Origin: Escherichia phage vB_vPM_PD114
Sequence record: MH675927.1
Direction: 5' to 3' (one strand)
Length of the DNA stretch: 64,000 nucleotides
A program made the position numbers and the translations under genes. The first letter of the stretch is position 1. The number at the start of each line of letters is the position of its first letter. Of this stretch, positions 19,512 to 26,092 are shown one piece after another. The notes beneath the pieces were generated by a model. The model was not told the DNA's origin. It saw nothing but the letters and a program-made list of their open reading frames with translations, and did no database searches.

Positions 19512-19622
19512 ATGTCTACAGAAATTATTTTTGGCTTATCTGTTTTTATTGCTATTGTATCTTTTGTATGCGGTTATACACTAGGTTACAGATCAAGAAA
19601 AAATATTGTAAAAACTAGTTGA
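19512..19622 (+). CDS. very small hydrophobic peptide (36 aa), not in ORF track
   Basis: AAGGAAACAGT-ATG; MSTEIIFGLSVFIAIVSFVCGYTLGYRSRKNIVKTS. Confidence 0.25.
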   Translation: MSTEIIFGLSVFIAIVSFVCGYTLGYRSRKNIVKTS

Positions 19623-19648
19623 CAACATAGCTAGTTATTTGCTAAGAT
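19619..19648 (+). promoter_or_regulatory. sigma70-like promoter TTGACA-N18-TAAGAT
   Basis: Read directly. Confidence 0.4.
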
Positions 19649-19678: not shown

Positions 19679-19945
19679 ATGACAGAACGTACTTATGGTA
19701 AAGAATTGATTGAGAAGCACGTATTGATTGATAATAAAGGTGGAGCAATCTTTATTTTTGAACCTGAATCAGTTCTTACTGAAAACGAAAATGGTAGCGT
19801 TAGCCTTAAAACAGAAAGTTTGGTAATTGACTTCCTTGCTCTTCTGGATGAAATGGGGCTTCCGCACGAAGAAGAAGCAGCTATTGCTTTGATTACAGTT
19901 CTTCTGGAGAAACGCGAAGCTGGTGAAATGACCCAGTATGCTTAA
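19679..19945 (+). CDS. hypothetical protein (88 aa)
   Basis: AAAGGAGAAAACT-ATG; ORF track. Confidence 0.4.
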   Translation: MTERTYGKELIEKHVLIDNKGGAIFIFEPESVLTENENGSVSLKTESLVIDFLALLDEMGLPHEEEAAIALITVLLEKREAGEMTQYA

Positions 19946-19952
19946 TATTCAA

Positions 19953-20028
19953 GGTTCCATAGCTCACTGACGAGAGCGCACACCTCATAAGTGTCGAGGG
20001 CAGGGATTGTAACCCTGGGGAACCACCA
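19953..20028 (+). tRNA. tRNA-Met(CAT)-like, atypical T-loop
   Basis: Acceptor GGTTCC/GGAACC (position 7 mismatched), D-stem GCTC/GAGC, anticodon loop CTCATAA, T-arm CAGGG-ATTGTAA-CCCTG, encoded CCA. Hand-folded. Confidence 0.4.
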
Positions 20029-20059
20029 TTTAAAAGGAGATGCTATGCATCTCCTATAT

Positions 20060-20145
20060 GCAAGTGTGGTGGAATTGGTGATACACATTGTGCTTAAAAC
20101 GCAACGCTTAAATGATTGAGGGTTCGAATCCCTCCACTTGCACCA
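20060..20145 (+). tRNA. tRNA-Leu(TAA), class II
   Basis: Acceptor GCAAGTG/CACTTGC, anticodon loop CTTAAAA, long variable arm, T-arm GAGGG-TTCGAAT-CCCTC, discriminator A, CCA encoded. Confidence 0.6.
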
Positions 20146-20147
20146 AC

Positions 20148-20253
20148 GCCTAGTAGGGTATTTGGTAATTCCGAGGCCATCAAAGCCTGAAAAATATGTT
20201 AGACCGCTTTGTCTAACTAAATACGAAATATGGTTCGATTCCATAACTAGGCT
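20148..20253 (+). tRNA. tRNA-like element, unusually long (106 nt); possible pseudo-tRNA or tRNA with insertion
   Basis: Perfect acceptor pairing GCCTAGT/ACTAGGC and T-arm TATGG-TTCGATT-CCATA, but 74 nt between them with internal 7-bp hairpin GTTAGAC/GTCTAAC. Confidence 0.25.
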
Positions 20254-20285
20254 TCAATTTAAATAATAATTTTAGTAAAAATATC

Positions 20286-20314
20286 TTGACATTCACTTAG
20301 TTTTTTGTTATAGT
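20286..20314 (+). promoter_or_regulatory. sigma70-like promoter TTGACA-N17-TATAGT
   Basis: Read directly; ~12 nt upstream of next tRNA. Confidence 0.5.
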
Positions 20315-20325
20315 TACTGTGAAAA

Positions 20326-20407
20326 CGGGGTGTATCTCACCTGACTTCTAATCAGGCGTTAACCGAGTAATTGGAGTATGCAGGTTCGAATCCTGTCACC
20401 CCGACCA
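20326..20407 (+). tRNA. tRNA-like with Arg(TCT)-type anticodon arm, atypical D region
   Basis: Acceptor CGGGGTG/CACCCCG, T-arm GCAGG-TTCGAAT-CCTGT, CCA encoded; hairpin CCTGA-CTTCTAA-TCAGG only 7 nt after acceptor, no D-arm found by hand. Confidence 0.4.
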
Positions 20408-20425
20408 AAAAGTTTTAAAAACTAC

Positions 20426-20455
20426 TTGACAAGCAAGATAGTTTTATGTTAGATT
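20426..20455 (+). promoter_or_regulatory. sigma70-like promoter TTGACA-N18-TAGATT
   Basis: Read directly. Confidence 0.4.
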
Positions 20456-20470
20456 TAAAGTATGATAACG

Positions 20471-20560
20471 GGAAGGTAGGGCGCAGCGGTGCGCAACCAG
20501 GTTTGAACCCTGGCCCATTGTAGCGATACGGTGATGGTTCGACTCCATTATCTTCCTCCA
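20471..20560 (+). tRNA. tRNA-Ser(TGA), class II
   Basis: Acceptor GGAAGGT/ATCTTCC (one G-U), anticodon arm CCAGG-TTTGAAC-CCTGG, long variable arm, T-arm GATGG-TTCGACT-CCATT, CCA encoded. Confidence 0.55.
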
Positions 20561-20578
20561 AATTCAACTAGGAGCTTT

Positions 20579-20731
20579 ATGAATTATAAAACTATTGGAC
20601 AGGTTGTTACCGGAGTTAAGATTGTAGATAATAAAGTTGTTTATGAGTATTCTAATCTTCAACAATCTGAAGATGGTAAAAATATTCGTATGGTAAAAGC
20701 AGAACAAAAAGATTCCGGTTGTTTTGAATAA
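20579..20731 (+). CDS. hypothetical small protein (50 aa; track ORF 20531-20731 trimmed to avoid tRNA overlap)
   Basis: TAGGAGC...ATG at 20579 right after tRNA-Ser. Confidence 0.3.
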   Translation: MNYKTIGQVVTGVKIVDNKVVYEYSNLQQSEDGKNIRMVKAEQKDSGCFE

Positions 20732-20739
20732 TTAAGAAC

Positions 20740-20825
20740 GGTAGATTGGTGAAATGGTAGCCACAACAGTTTGCTAAACTGTCGTCGGAAACGGCGTGTA
20801 GGTTCAAGTCCTACATCTACCGCCA
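20740..20825 (+). tRNA. tRNA-Ser(GCT), class II
   Basis: Acceptor GGTAGAT/ATCTACC, anticodon arm ACAGT-TTGCTAA-ACTGT, long variable arm, T-arm GTAGG-TTCAAGT-CCTAC, discriminator G, CCA encoded. Confidence 0.6.
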
Positions 20826-20845
20826 AATTTATGCGAGGAGGATGT

Positions 20846-21226
20846 ATGCCAAGCAATGATTATATGCGGGAATACATGAAAACTCGGTGGCAGAAGCGAA
20901 GAGCTTCCGCAATCCTCCAGCTTGGAGGTAAATGTGTTAATTGTGGGTCTGTAGATGACTTGGAATTTGATCATAAAGATTCAAGCGAGAAGAAGTTTTA
21001 TATTAGTCGAATGAGTTCATGCTCTGAGGCTAAATGGCAGGAAGAACTTGCCAAATGTCAACTTTTGTGCCATGACTGTCACATGAAGAAGACAAGAATA
21101 TCCCAAGACATGGGAAACAGAATTAGAACAACGGTGTGTGTTTGCGGGGCAGTATTTTATAGTACAAAGGCTTATGCTGGACATACACGGTGGTGTAAAG
21201 AGTATGCATCGTTAGCCAAGCGGTAA
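20846..21226 (+). CDS. HNH endonuclease (free-standing, inside tRNA cluster)
   Basis: CVNCGSVDDLEFDHKD...CQLLCHDCHMKK...C-terminal Cys/His cluster; RBS GAGGAGG; last ~7 codons overlap the 5' end of the following tRNA. Confidence 0.55.
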   Translation: MPSNDYMREYMKTRWQKRRASAILQLGGKCVNCGSVDDLEFDHKDSSEKKFYISRMSSCSEAKWQEELAKCQLLCHDCHMKKTRISQDMGNRIRTTVCVCGAVFYSTKAYAGHTRWCKEYASLAKR

Positions 21227-21280
21227 GGCACTTGACTTTTAATCAAGGGAGCGAAGGTTCGAATCCTTCACGATGTACCA
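21206..21280 (+). tRNA. tRNA-Lys(TTT)
   Basis: Acceptor GCATCGT/ACGATGT (G1-U72), D-stem GCC/GGC, anticodon arm CTTGA-CTTTTAA-TCAAG, T-arm GAAGG-TTCGAAT-CCTTC, CCA encoded. Confidence 0.55.
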
Positions 21281-21285
21281 AACAC

Positions 21286-21372
21286 GTAGGTATCGCATAG
21301 CGGCAATTGCTGGAGACTGTAAATCTCCTGCCCTTCGGGGCTTCGTTGGTTCGAGTCCAACTACCTGCACCA
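21286..21372 (+). tRNA. tRNA-Tyr(GTA), class II
   Basis: Acceptor GTAGGTA/TACCTGC, anticodon arm GGAGA-CTGTAAA-TCTCC, long variable arm, T-arm GTTGG-TTCGAGT-CCAAC, discriminator A, CCA. Confidence 0.55.
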
Positions 21373-21379
21373 AATTAAA

Positions 21380-21464
21380 GATGGATTGGCCTAGTGGTTG
21401 GGCGACGGACTGTTAATCCGTGAACGAAAGTTCTAGCAAGGTTCAAATCCTTGATCCATCGCCA
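21380..21464 (+). tRNA. class II (Ser-like architecture) tRNA with GTT anticodon
   Basis: Acceptor GATGGAT/ATCCATC, 3-bp D-stem GCC/GGC, anticodon arm ACGGA-CTGTTAA-TCCGT, 15-nt variable hairpin GAAC-GAAA-GTTC, T-arm CAAGG-TTCAAAT-CCTTG, discriminator G, CCA. Confidence 0.45.
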
Positions 21465-21471
21465 GAATTAT

Positions 21472-21548
21472 GGACTTGTAGAGTTAAGGTAAACCCTCAG
21501 TCGCAAAGAGGCTTCTGGAATTGCAGGTATCGAATCCTGCCGAGTCCA
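21472..21548 (+). tRNA. tRNA, anticodon unresolved
   Basis: Acceptor GGACTTG/CGAGTCC, T-arm GCAGG-(T)ATCGAAT-CCTGC with 8-nt loop; anticodon arm could not be folded unambiguously (possible loop GTCGCAA). Confidence 0.35.
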
Positions 21549-21554
21549 ATTATT

Positions 21555-21629
21555 GCTCCTATCGTATAACGGCTATTACGGTTGCCTTGTAAGCAACTTA
21601 TCAGGGTTCGAGTCCTTGTGGGAGCACCA
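21555..21629 (+). tRNA. tRNA-Thr(TGT)
   Basis: Acceptor GCTCCTA/TGGGAGC, anticodon arm GTTGC-CTTGTAA-GCAAC, T-arm CAGGG-TTCGAGT-CCTTG, CCA encoded. Confidence 0.55.
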
Positions 21630-21652
21630 ATTTTAACTCTAAAGGAGTGTAT

Positions 21653-21976
21653 GTGACAGAAAAAGAGTTAGAGAAATATTTTAATATCAATGTTTTCGAT
21701 GGTTTTGATGATATTGAAGATGTTGAAAGATATTATGAAGTAGAGTTAGATAAGGATAACATTGTAATTCTTTCTGCCACTTATGATTGTGCATATTATG
21801 AAGGTGAATCTCACGTTTATTTTTATGATATGAAAACATCTTTGTTTTATGAAGTACACGCATATCATTGTTCTTGTTATGGTTTAGAAGGTCAGTGGGA
21901 ACCTGAAGAAATAGGTGATTTGAGCTTTACGGTTGCATATCTAAACAGACGTGGTGCATCTACTATTTTAAAATAA
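21653..21976 (+). CDS. hypothetical acidic protein (107 aa) inside tRNA cluster
   Basis: AGGAG then GTG at 21653 (track start 21647 overlaps the RBS); ORF track. Confidence 0.4.
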   Translation: MTEKELEKYFNINVFDGFDDIEDVERYYEVELDKDNIVILSATYDCAYYEGESHVYFYDMKTSLFYEVHAYHCSCYGLEGQWEPEEIGDLSFTVAYLNRRGASTILK

Positions 21977-21990
21977 ATATTAAAAGCCTC

Positions 21991-22020
21991 TTGACAAAGG
22001 GGCTAATAATATGTTAGAGT
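21991..22020 (+). promoter_or_regulatory. sigma70-like promoter TTGACA-N18-TAGAGT
   Basis: Read directly; precedes tRNA-Gly. Confidence 0.45.
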
Positions 22021-22031
22021 AATATTGTTAA

Positions 22032-22106
22032 GCGGGTATAGTGTTAATGGTAGCATATGAGGTTTCCACCCTCCAGGTGCAGGTTCAAGTCCTGTTACTC
22101 GCTCCA
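22032..22106 (+). tRNA. tRNA-Gly(TCC)
   Basis: Acceptor GCGGGTA/TACTCGC, anticodon loop TTTCCAC, T-arm GCAGG-TTCAAGT-CCTGT, CCA encoded. Confidence 0.5.
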
Positions 22107-22537
22107 AGATTATTTAAATGGAATCGCTAGAGAAAATTTCTCTTTTCGCTCATGGTTTTCTCCTTCAAACTCTAGCGGTTCTTTTTAAGTGATTTTTTAG
22201 TTTATTGGAGATTCACTGCCTTAGTGTGAGCTAAAATCGAGGAGCCATCGAACTGTCTGATTAATGATTTGCGAATCATTATAGTTTTAAGACCCCGGCA
22301 GTTTTATGGTGTACCTCTTGAATGTGAATGATGACGGGTTTATGGTTATCCTGGTCGTTAAATATCCAAAAACCTATGTTCCCCTTGAGGGCTTGCGCAG
22401 GCAATGCCAATAAGTCCTGCATTTTCATTTAAAAGAGAATTTATAATGGAAAAAGATGAACTTAAGTATGCTAAGCCTCTGGCTTCTGCTGCACGAAAAG
22501 CAGTTCGTCACTTTGTGGTAACACTGAAGTAATTTAT

Positions 22538-22612
22538 TGGAGATTAGCCTAGTGGGAAGGCAACGGCCTTTGAAGTCGTGATGACTAGGTTCGATTCCTA
22601 GATCTCCAGCCA
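22538..22612 (+). tRNA. tRNA-Gln(TTG)
   Basis: Acceptor TGGAGAT/ATCTCCA, D-stem GCC/GGC, anticodon arm ACGGC-CTTTGAA-GTCGT, T-arm CTAGG-TTCGATT-CCTAG, CCA. Confidence 0.5.
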
Positions 22613-22619
22613 AGATTTA

Positions 22620-22695
22620 CAGTGCGTAGCGCAGTTGGTAGCGTGGGAGCCTTGGACGCTTCAGGTCGCAGGTTCGAGTCCTGCCGCACTGACCA
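22620..22695 (+). tRNA. tRNA-Pro(TGG)
   Basis: Acceptor CAGTGCG/CGCACTG (C1-G72), anticodon arm GGAGC-CTTGGAC-GCTTC, T-arm GCAGG-TTCGAGT-CCTGC, CCA. Confidence 0.55.
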
Positions 22696-22700
22696 AATTT

Positions 22701-22775
22701 GCAGAGATAGCTGAGACGGATTAGTGCTACCCTGAAAAGGTAGAAAGGATGGATCGTTACCATCTCTCTGCACCA
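22701..22775 (+). tRNA. tRNA-Phe(GAA)
   Basis: Acceptor GCAGAGA/TCTCTGC, anticodon arm CTACC-CTGAAAA-GGTAG, T-arm GATGG-ATCGTTA-CCATC (atypical loop), CCA. Confidence 0.5.
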
Positions 22776-22852
22776 AATAACACCATCCAAGGAGTAGACT
22801 TGGTTAACTGTCAATAGCACATTGAGGCTTCTTACAGTGGTGTACTTATTAT

Positions 22853-22937
22853 GGCTAAGTGGTGGAATGGTATACACGATACGCTTAGAACGTATTGCCC
22901 CAAGGGATTGTGAGTTCGAGTCTCACCTTAGCTACCA
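22853..22937 (+). tRNA. tRNA-Leu(TAG), class II
   Basis: Acceptor GGCTAAG/CTTAGCT, anticodon arm ATACG-CTTAGAA-CGTAT, long variable arm, T-arm GTGAG-TTCGAGT-CTCAC, discriminator A, CCA. Confidence 0.55.
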
Positions 22938-22952
22938 AATTATTACAGATTG

Positions 22953-23031
22953 CGCGGGATAGAGGAGTCTGGTCGTCCTCGCCAGTTTCATATGCTGGAG
23001 ATCATCGGTTCAAATCCGATTCCCGCCTCCA
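22953..23031 (+). tRNA. tRNA with CAT anticodon (Met, or Ile2 if lysidine-modified), C1:C72 mismatch
   Basis: Acceptor CGCGGGA/TCCCGCC with unpaired 1:72, D-stem GAGG/CCTC, anticodon arm CCAGT-TTCATAT-GCTGG, T-arm ATCGG-TTCAAAT-CCGAT, CCA. Confidence 0.45.
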
Positions 23032-23089
23032 CTAAATACCTCCCTTCTGGTGTAATGATTAAATTACATTGACACCTCAAGGAACTCAT

Positions 23090-23172
23090 AGCTGGGTAGA
23101 TTTAAAAGAGTATGGTACTCAATATGGCTCCAAACCATAGATCAAGGGGTTCGATTCCTCACCTTGCTGCCA
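23090..23172 (+). tRNA. tRNA-Trp(CCA)-like, boundaries uncertain
   Basis: Anticodon arm TATGG-CTCCAAA-CCATA, T-loop TTCGATT, 3' CCTTGCT-G-CCA; acceptor pairing has a mismatch, D region long. Confidence 0.3.
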
Positions 23173-23177
23173 ATTAT

Positions 23178-23253
23178 TGTGGTATCGTACAGATGGTTAG
23201 TACACTCGACCGATAATCGAGAAACAACGGTTCGACTCCGTTTACCACGACCA
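23178..23253 (+). tRNA. tRNA-Ile(GAT)
   Basis: Acceptor TGTGGTA/TACCACG, D-stem GTAC/GTAC, anticodon arm CTCGA-CCGATAA-TCGAG, T-arm AACGG-TTCGACT-CCGTT, CCA. Confidence 0.45.
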
Positions 23254-23366
23254 AACTCCGTGCCAGCGGTGTCTTCGAAGAACAAGCCTAGTTCCTTCTG
23301 AGATGGAGGGGTGCGACTCCTTAACGCACAATTCTAATAAAGCATTTCAACTTAACAGTATTTATT

Positions 23367-23391
23367 AGCCTCCTTATTGGAGGCTTTTTGC
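23367..23391 (+). terminator. rho-independent terminator AGCCTCC-TTATT-GGAGGCT + TTTTTG at end of tRNA array
   Basis: Perfect 7-bp stem followed by T-run. Confidence 0.6.
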
Positions 23392-24770: not shown

Positions 24771-26009
24771 GTGGCAAGGAAACCTGTCAAACAATCTTTT
24801 GAAAATGTAGATATTGAAGTTAAAGCCCAACCTGGCAAACAAACACTAGCTATGGATCTTATGCCTGAAGTAATGATTTATGGTGGTGCGGCAGGTTGTG
24901 TTTCAGCAGAAACAGAATACTTAACAAGAGACGGTTGGAAACAAATAAGTGAATATGATGGTGAGGATATTTATCAATACAATCCAAGAAACAAACGTCT
25001 TGAATTAGTTACACCATCTTTTGTAGAATATGATGCTAAAGATAATCTGTATTGTATTACAAACGGAGTAGGTGTCTTCCAAGAATTAAGTATGGAACAT
25101 CGCTTTGTTTTCTACAAGAAGAAAAAATCCAAAAAACATTTTGAAATTCTTGTTGGGGATCTTATTGCACTACAGCAAGCAGGACACCCATTACGAGGAT
25201 ATATTGAAAATCCTTTTGGTAAACGTGTTCCGTTTAACATTCAAGGTAAACCTAGCACATATCTAAAAATTCATGAGGTAATGACAAGTGATGATAAGAA
25301 ATATTGCTTTGAAACTCCAAGCAGTTATGTCGTGTTTAGACGTGGCGATCACATCTTCGTTACTGGGAATAGCGGCAAAAGCCGTCTGCTACTTCTAAAA
25401 GCACTTAAATACGCATATAAAGATCCACTGTTTGGTGGTATTCTTTTCCGTAAAAATACAACAGCTTTACGTAAATCTGGTGGTTTGTTTACTGAAGCTA
25501 AAAAACTTTATCTACCATTAAAGCCTCACGTAAGAGAACAGGCTATGGAGATGGAGTTCAGAGCCACAAAAGGTGGCACACTTAAATTTGACCATCTTGA
25601 AAATGATAACGTAACTGCTGAAACTAACCATCAAGGTACACAGTATTCGATGGTAGGGTTTGACGAACTTACACATTTTACACAATATGAAATGCTGTAT
25701 CTGTTAGGGCGTATGCGTTCTGAATCAGAAACATCTTTTATGCTGTGTACTTGTAACCCTGATGCTGACAGTTGGGTGTTGAAATGGGTACTTCCTTATT
25801 TGGATGAAGCTGGTTATCCACGGGAAGATATGTGTGGCAAACAGCTATACTTTCTTATTGTGCAAGATGAACCAGTATTTGCTGAAACAGCAGAAGAGTT
25901 GAAAGAAAAGTATCCTGAAAACTGTTTTATGCAAAACCCAAACACAGGTGAAACAGTGGTTATTGAACCACAAACATTTGTGTTCATTGGTGGAACCATT
26001 AATCAATAG
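24771..26009 (+). CDS. terminase large subunit, ATPase domain (contains mini-intein in Walker A)
   Basis: GTG start after AGGAGG; YGGAAG|C...intein...N|SGKS reconstitutes P-loop GGAAGSGKS; Walker B SMVGFDELTHF; followed by portal gene downstream. Confidence 0.7.
   Translation: MARKPVKQSFENVDIEVKAQPGKQTLAMDLMPEVMIYGGAAGCVSAETEYLTRDGWKQISEYDGEDIYQYNPRNKRLELVTPSFVEYDAKDNLYCITNGVGVFQELSMEHRFVFYKKKKSKKHFEILVGDLIALQQAGHPLRGYIENPFGKRVPFNIQGKPSTYLKIHEVMTSDDKKYCFETPSSYVVFRRGDHIFVTGNSGKSRLLLLKALKYAYKDPLFGGILFRKNTTALRKSGGLFTEAKKLYLPLKPHVREQAMEMEFRATKGGTLKFDHLENDNVTAETNHQGTQYSMVGFDELTHFTQYEMLYLLGRMRSESETSFMLCTCNPDADSWVLKWVLPYLDEAGYPREDMCGKQLYFLIVQDEPVFAETAEELKEKYPENCFMQNPNTGETVVIEPQTFVFIGGTINQ
24897..25370 (+). 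mobile_element. mini-intein (158 aa) inserted in the terminase Walker A motif
   Basis: Starts CVSAETEYLTRDGW (block A-like, Cys1), ends ...DHIFVTGN followed by Ser (+1); flanking extein residues join to a canonical P-loop. Confidence 0.6.
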
Positions 26010-26063: not shown

Positions 26064-26092
26064 TTGACAAATAGATAATCAGCAGCTATAAT
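26064..26092 (+). promoter_or_regulatory. consensus sigma70 promoter TTGACA-N17-TATAAT driving the HNH endonuclease gene
   Basis: Exact -35 and -10 consensus hexamers, 17-nt spacer. Confidence 0.55.

What the first reader, a model, noticed from the sequence alone, without database searches (positions are those of the whole stretch)
19953..23253. Large tRNA array (about 19 genes) with internal promoters and embedded protein genes
Hand folding identifies tRNAs with anticodons CAT, TAA, TCT-like, TGA, GCT, TTT, GTA, GTT, TGT, TCC, TTG, TGG, GAA, TAG, CAT, CCA-like and GAT, most with encoded CCA, punctuated by at least four sigma70-like promoters and closed by a strong terminator at 23367. Such arrays usually compensate for codon-usage mismatch or for host tRNA depletion by defence nucleases. 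Several members have non-canonical features (see separate findings).
Basis: seen in the sequence. Interest (0 to 1): 0.5.

Follow-up and report, generated by a model that had tools for sequence, protein, structure and literature searches.

The report
Phage tRNA array with rewired tRNA-Arg
This is the already-known tRNA gene cluster of phi92-like E. coli phages and is ordinary as an array, but one member that annotators skip is a tRNA-Arg with a rearranged, non-cloverleaf layout that also occurs, unannotated, in hundreds of other phages.

Summary
Window 19953-23253 holds a one-strand tRNA array. Two further tRNA-shaped elements bring the total to 19. Four consensus sigma70 promoters (0.017 expected by chance), a terminator at 23367 and embedded ORFs, including an HNH homing endonuclease, are also real.

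The window is a phi92-like coliphage (Justusliebigvirus, 99% to PD06). The array is already annotated in phi92 and described in papers, so as an array it is ordinary. Codon usage supports the supply interpretation: AGA is 8.9x, ACA 4.4x and ATA 3.7x the E. coli level in late genes. tRNA-Thr, and the tRNA-Lys allele of sister phages, carry substitutions of the kind that block the PARIS nuclease.

The unexpected part is the "TCT-like" member (20326-20407). It is not a pseudogene. It belongs to a family of about 60 retrieved members that all carry Arg anticodons. In this family the D-stem 5' strand and D-loop lie 3' of the anticodon arm, and this is supported by strong covariation. The family is found in 267 GenBank phage records, almost never annotated, and I found no description of it. 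The "CCA-like" member and two gap elements are also conserved, atypical tRNA-like genes.

The parts
19619..19648 (+). Promoter P1: TTGACA, 18-nt spacer, TG-extended TAAGAT. It lies upstream of the 88-aa ORF and the first tRNAs.
19679..19945 (+). 88-aa ORF of unknown function (phi92 gp110 homolog). It ends 7 nt before the first tRNA.
   Evidence: phrog_15056, E = 3e-50. Annotated as a CDS in phi92.
19953..20028 (+). tRNA-Met(CAT) copy 1, atypical. The T-loop reads ATTGTAA, the D-loop has no GG, and the anticodon arm is 4 bp plus a C.C mismatch.
   Evidence: ARAGORN calls it. Rfam gives no + strand hit even at E <= 5. phi92 labels it 'hypothetical tRNA'. It is invariant in 57 records, so there is no covariation evidence.
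20060..20145 (+). tRNA-Leu(TAA), class II, canonical.
   Evidence: 57 bits.
20148..20255 (+). Suppressor-type tRNA-like gene with a UCA triplet in the anticodon loop. It has a 6-bp D stem with a 4-nt loop (tRNA-Sec-like), a ~40-nt variable region, A33, and a 3' end reading TCA instead of CCA.
   Evidence: Homolog of the Erwinia phage Hena1 gene annotated 'tRNA-sup(tca)', with compensatory changes in the acceptor, anticodon and T stems. Absent from phi92, KKE7M and JohannJBalmer.
20286..20314 (+). Promoter P2: TTGACA, 17-nt spacer, TG-extended TATAGT (11 of 12 matches, the best in the region). It sits directly in front of the tRNA-Arg.
20326..20407 (+). tRNA-Arg(UCU) with a permuted D-arm. Order: acceptor 5' strand, U8 A9, [22-25 UCUC], A26, anticodon arm, 8-nt linker, [10-13 GAGU], D-loop AAUUGGA (G18 G19 A20), T arm, acceptor 3' strand, A73, CCA.
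   Evidence: Rfam tRNA 40 bits with the D-arm deleted. Family model R1 scores it 104.8 bits, against at most 33 bits for ordinary tRNAs. Covariation.
20426..20455 (+). Promoter P3: TTGACA, 18-nt spacer, TG-extended TAGATT.
   Evidence: 83% conserved in Phapecoctavirus.
20471..20560 (+). tRNA-Ser(TGA) with a tRNA-Sec-like 8/4 fold: 8-bp acceptor stem, 4-bp T stem, D stem with a 4-nt loop, and U73.
   Evidence: ARAGORN. Best Rfam match is tRNA-Sec at 35 bits, below the cutoff of 47. MFE fold. The SalP219 homolog keeps the 8/4 layout through compensatory changes. phi92 flags it as pseudo.
20579..20731 (+). 50-aa ORF of unknown function (phi92 gp111 homolog).
   Evidence: phrog_22441, E = 1e-39.
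20740..20825 (+). tRNA-Ser(GCT), canonical class II.
   Evidence: 97% identical in Phapecoctavirus.
20846..21226 (+). HNH homing endonuclease, 126 aa. Its last 21 nt and its stop codon lie inside the tRNA-Lys gene.
   Evidence: phrog_4234, E = 3e-25. Precise presence/absence polymorphism at the 5' edge of tRNA-Lys, linked to a different tRNA-Lys 5' half.
21206..21280 (+). tRNA-Lys(TTT), the HNH-linked allele. Positions 36-41 read UAAUCA, as in the host, and position 16 is C.
   Evidence: (72.8 bits).
21286..21372 (+). tRNA-Tyr(GTA), class II.
21380..21464 (+). tRNA-Asn(GTT) with a long variable arm, which is an unusual class-II shape for Asn. It has G73.
   Evidence: The variable-arm stem covaries across three genera: GAAC/GTTC, GTTC/GAAC and GAGT/ACTC. 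It is annotated as tRNA-Asn in many phages.
21472..21548 (+). tRNA-like element without an anticodon loop. It has a 7-bp acceptor stem, a T arm with an 8-nt loop, and a CCAG/CUGG stem closing a 14-nt loop. No CCA is encoded.
   Evidence: Two alleles differ by compensatory changes at pairs 2-71, 3-70 and 6-67, in the T stem and in the CCAG/CUGG stem. It is 95-98% conserved in the sister genus and is unannotated in all 87 records that hold it.
21555..21629 (+). tRNA-Thr(TGT). Positions 36-41 read UAAGCA (G39), and position 16 is C.
21653..21976 (+). 107-aa ORF of unknown function (phi92 gp112 homolog).
   Evidence: phrog_8792, E = 1e-43.
21991..22020 (+). Promoter P4: TTGACA, 18-nt spacer, TG-extended TAGAGT. 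It lies upstream of tRNA-Gly.
22032..22106 (+). tRNA-Gly(TCC).
22107..22197 (+). Long hairpin followed by U-runs. It may be an internal terminator or a processing element.
   Evidence: MFE -27.3 kcal/mol, z = -5.1, with 0 of 200 shuffles folding as well. 100% conserved within the genus.
22198..22537 (+). Circularly permuted segment derived from a T4-like phage: the rIII-30.9 intergenic region followed by the last ~85 nt of rIII. It includes a 42-aa ORF (22404-22532) that encodes only the C-terminus of RIII. It is flanked by the direct repeat T(A/T)TTTATTGGAGATT.
   Evidence: 97-99% identity to Tequatrovirus. Permuted order shown. Empty site in KKE7M and JohannJBalmer. phrog_1457 matches only profile positions 55-86 of 86.
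22538..22612 (+). tRNA-Gln(TTG).
22620..22695 (+). tRNA-Pro(TGG).
22701..22775 (+). tRNA-Phe(GAA), with an atypical T-loop (ATCGTTA).
   Evidence: 49 bits. phi92 flags it as pseudo.
22853..22937 (+). tRNA-Leu(TAG), class II.
22953..23031 (+). tRNA-Met(CAT) copy 2, initiator-like. It has a 1-72 mismatch and a 5-bp D stem.
   Evidence: Annotated tRNA-fMet in JohannJBalmer. 97-100% identical in Phapecoctavirus.
23090..23172 (+). Atypical tRNA-Trp(CCA). It has a 9-nt insertion after A9, a 5-bp D stem with a 3-nt UGG loop, a conserved 4.69 mismatch, G73 and CCA.
   Evidence: Rfam 22.9 bits. ARAGORN calls it only at relaxed settings. An unannotated SalP219 homolog shows compensatory changes in the acceptor (3 pairs), D and anticodon stems.
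23178..23253 (+). tRNA-Ile(GAT).
23254..23332 (+). Conserved 79-nt element after the last tRNA. Function unknown.
   Evidence: Retained in all relatives even where the downstream sequence differs. 91-92% identical in Phapecoctavirus.
23367..23385 (+). Intrinsic terminator that closes the array.
   Evidence: 97% conserved in Phapecoctavirus.

Best explanation
What it is. The region is the conserved tRNA supply operon of a phi92-like (Justusliebigvirus) E. coli myovirus. It sits immediately upstream of the late structural gene module.

How it is expressed (inferred). Four consensus, TG-extended sigma70 promoters let unmodified host RNA polymerase transcribe it in several units. Host RNases then cut the transcripts into individual tRNAs. 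All 17 tRNAs carry an encoded CCA.

What the set supplies. It mainly provides readers of A/U-ending codons that the 38%-GC phage uses far more than E. coli does, and whose host tRNAs are minor species: Arg-UCU, Thr-UGU, Leu-UAG, Leu-UAA, Ser-UGA, Gly-UCC, Pro-UGG, Gln-UUG, and possibly an AUA reader among the two CAT tRNAs. A tight Lys-Tyr-Asn-Thr block probably also replaces host tRNAs that anticodon nucleases destroy.

Mosaic structure. The array has been remodelled by mobile and foreign DNA. An HNH homing endonuclease gene is inserted at the edge of tRNA-Lys and overlaps it. A circularly permuted fragment from a T4-like phage is inserted at the 5' end of tRNA-Gln.

The atypical members. Four members escape standard annotation yet are conserved, structured genes. 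The most important is the tRNA-Arg(UCU) at 20326-20407, which has its own promoter, the strongest in the region. Its D-stem still forms, but the strands are connected differently. The strand equivalent to positions 22-25 follows A9 directly and runs into the anticodon stem. The strand equivalent to 10-13, plus a normal D-loop (A14...G18 G19 A20), lies 3' of the anticodon arm and leads into the T arm. The D stem and anticodon stem therefore form one long hairpin, and the D-loop becomes the connector to the T arm. I infer that it folds into the usual L-shape, is charged by ArgRS, whose determinants A20, C35, U36 and A73 are all present, and decodes AGA. AGA is the codon with the largest phage-host mismatch.

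Shown versus inferred. Shown: sequence, conservation, covariation, promoter and terminator consensus matches, and codon statistics. Inferred: transcription, processing, aminoacylation, decoding and nuclease evasion.
For: Identity and prior knowledge. The window is 99.1% identical to phage PD06 and 96.7% to phi92. phi92 annotates t002-t017 at this locus. KKE7M, muut and JohannJBalmer annotate 14-15 tRNAs there. The BME3 paper lists 16 tRNAs for the genus, none of them Arg.

tRNA calls..

Promoters and terminator. Four sites against 0.017 expected by chance.

Late module downstream. Terminase, portal, major head, sheath, tape measure and tail proteins follow the array.

Codon usage..

PARIS and Retron-Eco7 targets and resistance positions. 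Taken from PMC12409363 and PMC11555353 and compared with the window's sequences.

HNH endonuclease..

T4-derived segment..

Permuted tRNA-Arg.
- Family members score 36-105 bits with model R1, against at most ~33 bits for ordinary tRNAs.
- All of the ~60 retrieved members carry Arg anticodons: UCU, CCU, ACG or UCG.
- 96% of cells are paired, against 37-46% in slid controls, and 0 of 500 shuffles reach the observed covariation score.
- For the relocated D stem, two pairs are paired in 29 of 29 sequences, each with 4 pair types.
- A landmark-anchored test independent of the alignment gives 76 of 84 Watson-Crick pairs, against 11-21 of 84 in slid registers, with 0 of 10,000 permutations reaching that score.
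- RNAalifold recovers the same helix on its own.
- In dense bacterial tRNA arrays, members fill tRNA-sized gaps, and those arrays have other Arg tRNAs but no called Arg-UCU.
- The ArgRS determinants are retained.
Against: No expression, processing or charging data exist for any member. Everything functional is inferred from sequence.

The codon-usage association is modest overall (p = 0.04). The two most highly expressed late genes avoid the rare codons, with AGA at 2.5 per thousand and ATA at 0. Several supplied tRNAs (Phe, Ile-GAT, Ser-GCT, Trp, Met) read codons that the phage does not over-use.

The window's tRNA-Lys and tRNA-Asn keep host-like AriB cleavage sites.

Within the genus all members are 97-100% identical, so conservation there carries little information. 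The evidence for the atypical members rests on more distant homologs.

Single-sequence MFE folding of the Arg element prefers a local hairpin (CCGA/UUGG) over the 3-bp relocated D stem. In 9 of 29 family members one of the three pairs is a mismatch.

The family was collected with patterns that required a CTTCTAA loop and a GGTTCGA T-loop, so its apparent restriction to Arg is partly ascertainment. The CCU, ACG and UCG members were, however, found without that bias.
Confidence: 0.78

Rival explanations
1. The array is primarily an anti-defence device. In this view its key function is to replace host tRNAs cleaved by anticodon nucleases (PARIS/AriB, Retron-Eco7 PtuAB, PrrC and similar), and the unusual shapes of several members (permuted Arg, long-arm Asn, 8/4 Ser, atypical Trp) exist to escape nuclease recognition, not to match codon demand.
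For: Lys(UUU), Tyr, Asn(GUU) and Thr(UGU) are contiguous at 21206-21629, and these are exactly the published targets of AriB and Retron-Eco7.

tRNA-Thr has G39 and C16. In E. coli tRNA-Lys, U39 substitution abolishes AriB cleavage and U16 to C impairs it.

The HNH-less tRNA-Lys allele in PD06, phi92 and muut reads C39/U40/C41 and varies between phages exactly in the anticodon stem.

The window's tRNA-Lys has C16. The PARIS paper shows that determinants outside the anticodon arm matter.

Strong dedicated promoters match the 'overproduce phage tRNA' mechanism reported for T5 tRNA-Tyr.

Tyr, Asn, Phe, Ile and Lys read codons that are not strongly over-used, so codon demand alone does not explain them.
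Against: The window's tRNA-Lys and tRNA-Asn keep the host cleavage motifs UAAUC|A and UAAUC|C.

No nuclease is known to me that targets tRNA-Arg(UCU), Trp or Ser(UGA) as a phage defence in E. coli.

The strongest single signal, AGA at 8.9x in late genes with a dedicated promoter for tRNA-Arg, is a codon-demand signal.

Nothing was tested experimentally. The two functions are not mutually exclusive.
Confidence: 0.4
2. The atypical members are decaying pseudogenes or non-decoding tRNA-like RNAs, such as processing punctuation, decoys, or analogues of the T4 stable RNAs C and D. The members in question are Arg-TCT at 20326, Trp-CCA at 23090, the UCA element at 20148, the anticodon-less element at 21472 and Met at 19953. 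In this view only the ~13-15 canonical genes function in translation.
For: ARAGORN and/or Rfam fail on these elements at default thresholds.

The phi92 authors flagged two members as pseudo and one as hypothetical.

The element at 21472 has no 7-nt anticodon loop in either allele, so it cannot decode.

The element at 20148 has A33 and lacks CCA in the window. It is absent from many genus members. TGA ends 8 of 65 ORFs, so an active suppressor would be costly.

Met at 19953 has no detectable relatives with sequence variation, so nothing supports its fold.
Against: For Arg: pseudogene decay does not produce about 60 diverged members that keep all four helices through compensatory changes, keep canonical anticodon and T loops, carry only Arg anticodons, keep the ArgRS determinants, and fill the Arg-UCU slot in arrays that lack a canonical copy.

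For Trp and the UCA element: homologs in another phage subfamily keep every helix through compensatory changes.

The element at 21472 also shows compensatory changes, so it is under selection as a structure even though it is not a decoder.
Confidence: 0.2
3. The array has little selective value and persists as a hitch-hiking mosaic of horizontally acquired DNA. In this view tRNA genes are shuffled among phages by homing endonucleases and recombination, and the content simply reflects what was acquired.
For: The mosaic is extensive. The HNH gene, the 125-nt UCA element, the T4-derived block, a ~130-nt spacer and gp114 are each present or absent among genomes that are otherwise 97-100% identical.

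Individual tRNAs match T5-like, Felix O1-like and other phages at 80-96% identity.

A 98%-identical T4 fragment is inserted at a 13-16-nt microhomology.
Against: The core set and its order are conserved across the genus and partly across two subfamilies: Ser-GCT, Asn, the 21472 element, Thr, Gly, Gln, Pro, Met and the terminator.

Strong consensus promoters are conserved.

The anticodon set is non-random with respect to codon demand.
Confidence: 0.1

Closest known systems
tRNA gene cluster of Escherichia phage phi92 and other Justusliebigvirus (phi92 features t002-t017; 15-16 tRNAs reported for BME3 and the ESCO phages)
   Same: It is the same locus and gene order at 97-100% identity: between the nicotinamide phosphoribosyltransferase gene and the lysis/terminase module, with the same small ORFs gp110-gp113.
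   Different: This window combines the HNH gene (as in KKE7M and JohannJBalmer) with the T4-derived block and the UCA element (as in PD06 and muut). It lacks a ~130-nt spacer after tRNA-Ser(GCT) that is present in all five compared relatives that align across it. No public record inspected annotates the Arg(UCU), Trp(CCA), UCA or 21472 elements.
tRNA regions of phages T4 and T5 (T4 tRNA cluster with the SegB homing endonuclease and stable RNAs C/D; T5 tRNA region with HNH endonucleases and tRNAs that counter PARIS and Retron-Eco7)
   Same: Each is a multi-tRNA cluster in a virulent coliphage, interspersed with small ORFs and homing endonuclease genes (SegB paper PMC2330249, listed). Each supplies Lys, Thr, Asn and Tyr tRNAs, which in T5 have been shown to neutralise PARIS and Retron-Eco7. 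The non-decoding tRNA-like RNAs are reminiscent of T4 RNAs C and D; that comparison rests on my own knowledge.
   Different: This is a different phage lineage with a different gene order. Anti-defence activity has not been tested here. The window's tRNA-Lys does not carry the T5 substitutions A39 and C41. The HNH gene here overlaps the tRNA-Lys gene itself.
D-arm-lacking metazoan mitochondrial tRNAs, especially tRNA-Ser(AGY/UCU)
   Same: There is no D hairpin between the acceptor and anticodon stems, only a short connector (review PMC7609411). By my own recollection of structural-compensation models from the 1990s, connector nucleotides pair with the variable region and so extend the anticodon helix. 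That is what the covariation shows here.
   Different: The phage/bacterial family keeps a complete D-loop sequence (A14...G18 G19 A20) and a canonical GGTTCGAAT T-loop, so the D/T elbow and L-shape can probably still form. It is specific to arginine, not serine. It works, if it works, with an unadapted bacterial translation apparatus. It is found in phages and bacterial tRNA arrays, not organelles.
Other non-canonical bacterial tRNAs: tRNA-Sec and related 8/4 or 9/3 'allo-tRNA'-type folds, and class II tRNAs with unexpected anticodons such as the nematode nev-tRNAs
   Same: tRNA-Ser(TGA) at 20471 has an 8/4 acceptor/T layout and a 4-nt D-loop. The element at 20148 has a 6-bp/4-nt D arm, a long variable region and a UCA anticodon. 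tRNA-Asn(GTT) has a long variable arm.
   Different: None reaches the Rfam tRNA-Sec threshold (35 bits against 47). The UCA element has a 7/5 layout, not 8/5, and has A33. No selenocysteine machinery was looked for. All of these keep cloverleaf connectivity, unlike the permuted tRNA-Arg.

Membership tests
Bacterial-type tRNA genes (Rfam RF00005 / ARAGORN cloverleaf) | Detected by a cloverleaf or covariance model at the curated threshold. | tested here: met
   ARAGORN at default of 17. Rfam at or above 29 bits, including Arg-TCT at 40 bits. Exceptions: Met at 19953 has no Rfam hit. Ser-TGA is only tRNA-Sec-like at 35 bits, below 47. Trp-CCA scores 22.9 bits.
Bacterial-type tRNA genes (Rfam RF00005 / ARAGORN cloverleaf) | A 7-nt anticodon loop with U33 and a purine at position 37, a paired acceptor stem, and a 3' CCA either encoded or addable. 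| tested here: met
   All 17 genes with anticodons meet this, and all encode CCA. It is not met by 20148-20255 (A33, TCA at the 3' end) or by 21472-21548 (no 7-nt loop, no CCA).
Bacterial-type tRNA genes (Rfam RF00005 / ARAGORN cloverleaf) | Canonical cloverleaf connectivity, with the D hairpin between positions 9 and 26. | tested here: not met
   This applies to the tRNA-Arg(UCU) at 20326-20407. Only 7 nt separate the acceptor and anticodon stems, and the D-stem partner and D-loop lie 3' of the anticodon arm. The other 16 genes keep cloverleaf connectivity.
Justusliebigvirus (phi92-like) tRNA cluster | Nucleotide identity and synteny with the annotated cluster in phi92 and its relatives. | tested here: met
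   96.7-99.1% identity over 81-91% of the region. Element-by-element matrix. Annotations.
HNH homing endonuclease gene | HNH nuclease domain. | tested here: met
   phrog_4234 'HNH endonuclease', E = 2.9e-25, plus nine other HNH PHROGs. Pfam gave no hit at E <= 0.01. CxxC...DH...CHxCH motifs are visible in the translation.
HNH homing endonuclease gene | Presence/absence polymorphism at a precise site between otherwise near-identical genomes, with altered flanking sequence (a co-conversion tract). | tested here: met
   The insertion lies exactly between AATTTATAC and ATCGTTAGC. HNH-positive genomes share a different 5' half of tRNA-Lys, while the 3' half is identical in all.
HNH homing endonuclease gene | Site-specific cleavage of the HNH-less allele, and homing in mixed infection. 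| not testable with these tools
   This needs enzyme assays or phage crosses.
Nuclease-evading phage tRNA set (T5-type anti-PARIS / anti-Retron-Eco7) | Encodes tRNA-Lys(UUU), Thr(UGU) and Asn(GUU), plus Tyr for Retron-Eco7. | tested here: met
   All four are contiguous at 21206-21629. Target lists come from PMC12409363 and PMC11555353.
Nuclease-evading phage tRNA set (T5-type anti-PARIS / anti-Retron-Eco7) | Substitutions at or around the AriB site (U39, C40|A41) or at U16. | tested here: inconclusive
   Thr has G39 and C16. Lys in this window has C16 only, with a host-like UAAUCA. Asn has a host-like UAAUCC. The sister-phage Lys allele has C39/U40/C41.
Nuclease-evading phage tRNA set (T5-type anti-PARIS / anti-Retron-Eco7) | Rescue of infection on defence-carrying hosts. 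| not testable with these tools
   This needs plaque assays with deletion mutants.
D-arm-lacking mitochondrial-type tRNA | No D hairpin; a short connector replaces it. | tested here: met
   The 7-nt connector is UAUCUCA.
D-arm-lacking mitochondrial-type tRNA | Loss of the D-loop/T-loop elbow elements (G18 G19 and a canonical T-loop). | tested here: not met
   The family keeps an invariant ...UGGA... segment (G18 G19 A20) and a GGTTCGA T-loop. It therefore resembles these tRNAs but is not one of them.
tRNA-Sec (RF01852) | Score at or above the gathering threshold, an 8/5 (bacterial) acceptor/T layout, and a UCA anticodon with U33. | tested here: not met
   The element at 20471 scores 35.3 bits against 47 and has a UGA anticodon (Ser). 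The element at 20148 gets no Rfam hit, has a 7/5 layout and has A33.

The most novel reading that the evidence does not exclude
The 'TCT-like' gene at 20326-20407 represents an undescribed natural class of tRNA that is functional, arginine-specific, and has non-cloverleaf strand connectivity. The segment 10-21 is transposed to the 3' side of the anticodon arm, so the D and anticodon stems form one continuous hairpin and the D-loop becomes the connector to the T arm. The class is used by the ordinary bacterial translation apparatus. It is widespread in virulent phages (Felix O1-like, phi92-like, Klebsiella and Proteus myoviruses, jumbo coliphages) and in dense bacterial tRNA arrays, and it is systematically missed by annotation pipelines. 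[quoted passage not shown]
Probability: 0.5. Interest if true: 0.85.

Novelty: new variant of a known kind. Interest (0 to 1): 0.55.

Why it matters
As an array, the finding adds little. Phage tRNA clusters, their codon-usage rationale and their newer anti-defence role are established, and this particular cluster is already in GenBank.

Its value lies in what annotation has skipped inside it. A tRNA-Arg whose D-arm is rewired yet keeps every helix, the D-loop, the T-loop and all ArgRS determinants would show that the L-shape can be built from a different strand topology. It would also show that an unadapted bacterial ArgRS, EF-Tu and ribosome use such a molecule.

Three practical consequences follow:
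- It would change how tRNA genes are searched for. Hundreds of phage genomes, and some bacterial tRNA arrays, would gain a 'missing' tRNA-Arg(UCU).
- It would affect codon-usage and host-range predictions for therapeutic coliphages. AGA is their most mismatched codon.
- It would offer a natural scaffold for orthogonal tRNA engineering.

It also raises a testable question: does the rewiring protect the tRNA from host tRNA-targeting nucleases? The other atypical members (Trp, the UCA element, the anticodon-less tRNA-like RNA, the long-arm Asn) suggest that phage tRNA clusters hold a reservoir of structural variants that is currently invisible.

Tried and rejected
1. D-armless mitochondrial-type tRNA for the Arg and Trp elements. 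ARAGORN's mitochondrial mode gave shifted, unconvincing calls at 20312-20373 and 23104-23167. I rejected this in favour of the permuted-D-stem model for Arg, and the insertion plus mini-D-loop model for Trp.

2. Arg-TCT as a decayed copy of a canonical tRNA-Arg. It does share its acceptor stem with the canonical SalP219 tRNA-Arg. I rejected decay once the diverged family and its covariation appeared.

3. A local hairpin (CCGA-GUAA-UUGG) in the 'variable' region, as predicted by MFE folding. It is not conserved across the family. For example, members with GGG at that position cannot form it, whereas the linker/triplet pairing covaries.

4. A functional RNA or tRNA remnant in the T4-derived block. 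Rfam gave no hit at E <= 5, and the promoter scan found no site of 9/12 or better there. I treat it as a recombination scar carrying a truncated rIII ORF.

5. tRNA-Sec identity for 20471 or 20148. Both are below threshold or have the wrong layout.

6. Pfam on the seven small ORFs gave nothing useful.

7. Looking for the Arg element in RefSeq E. coli genomes, to see how PGAP/tRNAscan-SE labels it, gave no match.

8. Eight literature searches for any description of the rearranged tRNA-Arg, or of atypical tRNAs in this phage group or in tRNA arrays, found nothing. Only open-access text was searched.

9. Met at 19953 has no diverged homologs, so its fold could be neither supported nor refuted.

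10. The 79-nt tail element at 23254-23332: hand comparison with the Phapecoctavirus version gave no convincing compensatory helix, and I did not pursue it.

11. Rfam/Infernal and ARAGORN were used as substitutes.

Full report
OBSERVATION

ARAGORN at default settings finds 15 tRNA genes, all on the + strand, between 19953 and 23253. Rfam's tRNA model finds 14 above its gathering score. That set includes one gene ARAGORN misses, 20326-20404 with anticodon TCT at 40 bits. It omits two that ARAGORN calls. The Met at 19953 has no Rfam hit at all. The Ser-TGA at 20471 has tRNA-Sec as its best match, at 35 bits against a threshold of 47. At relaxed thresholds a Trp-CCA appears at about 23090-23172.

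Four promoters with a perfect TTGACA and a TG-extended -10 start at 19619, 20286, 20426 and 21991. Shuffles give 0.017 such sites, and these four are 4 of only 6 such + strand sites in the whole window. The terminator at 23367-23385 is real and conserved. The embedded ORFs are an HNH endonuclease, three small proteins of unknown function and a fragment of rIII.

WHAT THE WINDOW IS

The region is 99.1% identical to Escherichia phage vB_vPM_PD06 and 96.7% identical to phi92, both Justusliebigvirus in the Stephanstirmvirinae. The phi92 record annotates the cluster as t002-t017, flagging Ser-TGA and Phe-GAA as pseudo and the first Met as 'hypothetical'. KKE7M, muut and JohannJBalmer annotate 14-15 tRNAs. 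A 2025 paper lists 16 tRNAs for phage BME3 and says 15 are conserved in the genus. As an array, then, this is already known.

It lies between the nicotinamide phosphoribosyltransferase gene and the late module of terminase, portal, major head, sheath, tape measure and tail proteins.

MOSAIC ANATOMY

An element-by-element comparison with nine relatives shows a conserved core interrupted by variable inserts.

(i) HNH gene. The HNH gene (20846-21226) is present only in KKE7M, JohannJBalmer and this window. It is inserted exactly at the 5' edge of tRNA-Lys, and its stop codon lies in the tRNA's D-loop. HNH-positive genomes carry a different 5' half of tRNA-Lys, while the 3' half is identical in all genomes. 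That is the pattern expected of a homing endonuclease with a co-conversion tract.

(ii) T4-derived block. The 340-nt stretch 22198-22537 is 97-99% identical to T4-like phages, but it is circularly permuted. T4-like phages have the order [end of rIII][intergenic region][start of 30.9]. The window has [intergenic region + ATG] fused in frame to [the last 27 codons of rIII]. The block is flanked by a 13-16-nt direct repeat. The right-hand copy of the repeat is the start of tRNA-Gln, and the same ATTGGAGATT follows the rIII stop codon in T4-like phages. KKE7M and JohannJBalmer show the empty site.

(iii) Other variable pieces. The 108-nt UCA element and a ~130-nt spacer after tRNA-Ser(GCT) are also variably present.

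FUNCTION OF THE SET

I compared 65 window ORFs with 46 annotated E. coli K-12 genes. The phage is 38% GC. The codons it over-uses most are AGA (7.6x), ACA (3.9x), ATA (3.2x), CTA (2.4x), TCA (2.1x), and CCA and GGA (1.7x). All have a cognate phage tRNA, with ATA covered only if one CAT tRNA is lysidine-modified, which is untested. The association across all codons is modest (p = 0.04).

In the late genes the bias is stronger: AGA is 13.5 per thousand against 6.0 in early genes, which is 8.9x the E. coli level. The major head and sheath genes avoid these codons.

For the anti-defence idea, the literature gives testable criteria. AriB of PARIS cleaves E. coli tRNA-Lys(UUU), Thr(UGU) and Asn(GUU) at U36-A-A-U39-C40|A41. 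Changes at U39 abolish cleavage, and A41 to C and U16 to C impair it. Retron-Eco7 depletes tRNA-Tyr. The window has Lys-Tyr-Asn-(tRNA-like element)-Thr as one block. Thr carries G39 and C16. The window's Lys has only C16. Asn has a host-like arm plus an extra long variable arm. The HNH-less Lys allele of sister phages has C39/U40/C41 and varies between phages at exactly this point.

Both functions are therefore plausible and compatible with each other, and neither is demonstrated.

THE ATYPICAL MEMBERS ARE GENES, NOT DEBRIS

tRNA-Asn(GTT). It has a long variable arm whose stem covaries completely across three genera: GAAC/GTTC, GTTC/GAAC and GAGT/ACTC. It is annotated as tRNA-Asn in many phages.

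tRNA-Ser(TGA). It keeps an 8-bp acceptor and 4-bp T stem layout through compensatory changes in SalP219.

Trp-CCA element. It has an unannotated homolog in SalP219 with compensatory changes at acceptor pairs 1-72, 2-71 and 3-70, in the D stem around an invariant 3-nt UGG loop, and in the anticodon stem around the same CUCCAAA loop.

Element at 20148-20255. It is homologous to a gene annotated 'tRNA-sup(tca)' in Erwinia phage Hena1. Compensatory changes occur in three stems, and the core GGCCAUCAAAGCC is identical. It has A33, and in the window its 3' end lacks CCA. TGA ends 8 of 65 ORFs, so I doubt it is an efficient suppressor.

Element at 21472-21548. It exists as two alleles that differ by compensatory changes in the acceptor stem, the T stem and a third stem. 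The loop that should hold the anticodon is 14 nt in one allele and 6 nt in the other. It is a selected tRNA-like RNA that cannot decode. It is 95-98% conserved in the sister genus and is never annotated.

THE tRNA-Arg

Rfam aligns 20326-20404 as a tRNA with the D-arm deleted and 20 extra nucleotides in the variable region. A scan of IMG/VR for its anticodon arm returned many canonical tRNA-Arg genes. It also returned a second, unrelated lineage with the same odd layout. A structure-based pattern and a covariance model built from six members then retrieved about 35 members from viral contigs. These score 36-105 bits, against at most about 33 bits for ordinary tRNAs. A further 24 came from one-per-species bacterial and archaeal genomes.

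Every member has an arginine anticodon. Most have UCU. The CCU, ACG and UCG members were found without any constraint on the anticodon, and include three tandem members in one contig.

The short connector after U8-A9 contains a triplet that pairs with a triplet in the 'variable' region. At least 15 combinations occur, including CTC/GAG, CGC/GCG, CGG/CCG, CGA/TCG, CCC/GGG, TCC/GGA, ACC/GGT, CAC/GTG, CAA/TTG, CAG/CTG and CCG/CGG. A subfamily has 5-6-bp versions, such as CCCGAC/GTTGGG.

The quantitative support is as follows.
- On the model-derived alignment, 96% of cells are paired, against 37-46% for slid partners. None of 500 shuffles reaches the observed covariation. Two of the three relocated D-stem pairs are paired in 29 of 29 sequences, each with four pair types.
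- Such alignments lean toward their model, so I repeated the test with fixed sequence landmarks only. That gave 76 of 84 Watson-Crick pairs, against 11-21 of 84 at shifted registers, and none of 10,000 partner permutations reached the observed score.
- RNAalifold predicts the same helix independently.

The segment after the 3' triplet reads U-A-A-Y-U-G-G-A, which is a normal tRNA-Arg D-loop (A14, G18, G19, A20). In standard numbering the gene reads: acceptor 1-7, U8 A9, [22-25], A26, 27-43, a 4-8-nt linker, [10-13], 14-21, about 3 nt, T arm, acceptor 66-72, position 73, CCA.

In a canonical tRNA the strand 22-25/26/27-31 is already continuous, and the strand complementary to it runs 39-43/(44)/10-13. 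The rearrangement therefore turns the stacked D and anticodon stems into one hairpin with an internal bulge, and lets the D-loop lead into the T arm. The L-shape and the D/T elbow should be attainable. This is geometric inference, not modelling.

Several further points bear on function.
- ArgRS determinants. A20, which is the main determinant for E. coli ArgRS and a feature unique to arginine among the 20 tRNA families, together with C35, U/G36 and A/G73, are all retained.
- Array context. In dense bacterial tRNA arrays the members sit in tRNA-sized gaps that ARAGORN leaves empty. Those arrays contain other Arg isoacceptors but no called Arg-UCU.
- The window itself. The gene has its own promoter, the best in the region. 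No canonical tRNA-Arg is reported for the genus. AGA is the most mismatched codon.
- Tolerance of the translation apparatus. E. coli EF-Tu and ribosomes accept an engineered D-armless tRNA. The same paper states that no non-cloverleaf tRNA is known in bacterial translation.
- Annotation status. One subfamily alone occurs in 267 GenBank phage records, including Felix O1-like, Klebsiella, Proteus, jumbo coliphage and Pectobacterium phages. In nearly all listed rows the site carries no annotation, and in one it is labelled 'tRNA-OTHER'.
- Literature. Eight literature searches found no description. The searchable library is open-access only, so 'undescribed' remains provisional.

CAVEATS

Nothing here shows expression, processing, charging or decoding. 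Within the genus everything is near-identical, so the evidence for structure comes from distant homologs. Single-sequence folding of the Arg gene prefers a different small hairpin. A third of family members have a mismatch at one of the three D-stem pairs. Collection of the family was biased toward CTTCTAA loops and GGTTCGA T-loops. tRNAscan-SE could not be run.

VERDICT

The array itself is a known, ordinary feature of phi92-like phages and would score low on its own.

The score is raised because the 'TCT-like' member turns out to represent a widespread, arginine-specific tRNA class with rewired strand connectivity. It has strong covariation support and appears to be unannotated and undescribed. 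Three other skipped elements are also conserved atypical tRNA-like genes.

Noticed in passing
window 22198-22545: A ~340-nt block is 97-99% identical to T4-like phages (Tequatrovirus) but circularly permuted. The rIII-30.9 intergenic region comes first. It is then joined, at a GG.AAAA microhomology, to the last ~85 nt of rIII, which creates a 28-42-aa ORF encoding only the C-terminus of RIII. The block is flanked by the 13-16-nt direct repeat TTTATTGGAGATT, which is both the 5' end of tRNA-Gln and the sequence after the rIII stop codon in T4-like phages. This implies recent recombination with a circular or tandemly duplicated T4-like donor during co-infection.
   Followed up: yes
window 20846-21280; relatives L001, L002, L003, L007, L008: There are two tRNA-Lys(UUU) alleles in the genus. 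The HNH-linked allele has a perfect, host-like anticodon stem. The HNH-less allele has only about 3 bp in that stem and differs between PD06, phi92 and muut by substitutions and an indel at positions 27-31 and 39-41, exactly where the PARIS nuclease cuts.
   Followed up: partly
window 20826-20845 versus relatives: The window lacks a ~130-nt spacer after tRNA-Ser(GCT) (AGTTATCTTTAATGTAGC...TTTAAAGAT) that is present in all five relatives aligned there. None of the top public records matches the window's combination of inserts, so this genome is a new mosaic variant.
   Followed up: partly
window 23254-23332: A 79-nt element directly after the last tRNA is retained in every relative, even where the downstream sequence is replaced by gene gp114, and it is 91-92% identical in Phapecoctavirus. 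It contains a GUGCG...CGCAC hairpin. It may be a small RNA at the 3' end of the operon.
   Followed up: partly
window 22107-22197: A very stable long hairpin (z = -5.1 against shuffles) followed by U-runs lies between tRNA-Gly and the T4-derived block, and it is 100% conserved in the genus. It may be an internal terminator. If so, the Gln-to-Ile tRNAs would have no obvious promoter of their own.
   Followed up: no
window 24771-26009: The terminase large-subunit ORF matches only positions 1-373 of a 642-position profile and then stops. A perfect 12/12 sigma70 consensus promoter starts at 26064. The gene appears to be split by an insertion, which could be an intron, an intein or a homing element.
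   Followed up: no
L187 1650-1926 (Saccharofermentanales MAG contig JBBAEW010000077.1): Three permuted-type tRNA-Arg genes sit in tandem with anticodons UCG, CCU and UCU. Contig L034 (IMG/VR, 115 kb) carries two, with UCU and ACG. Some elements therefore encode their whole Arg tRNA set in the rewired form.
   Followed up: partly
L205 5784-5858 (Acidobacteriaceae bacterium KBS 96, scaffold KB906767.1); also L178, L181, L190, L201: Permuted tRNA-Arg(UCU) genes occur inside dense tRNA arrays of 15-35 genes in bacterial genomes and MAGs. ARAGORN skips them there, leaving an apparent gap and an apparent lack of Arg-UCU.
   Followed up: partly
search results: Several GenBank records named 'Campylobacter phage' (A150, C3, A145, A110a, B15; ~146-150 kb; host listed as Campylobacter jejuni) are 97-100% identical to these E. 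coli phages across the array. The names or host assignments look doubtful.
   Followed up: no
window 19953-20028: The first tRNA-Met(CAT) has a T-loop reading ATTGTAA and a D-loop without GG, so both partners of the elbow interaction are changed together. By my recollection of the E. coli tRNA-Ile2 sequence, its anticodon arm (CACAC-CUCAUAA-GUGU) resembles that tRNA, so it may be the AUA reader. No diverged homologs were found to test the fold.
   Followed up: partly
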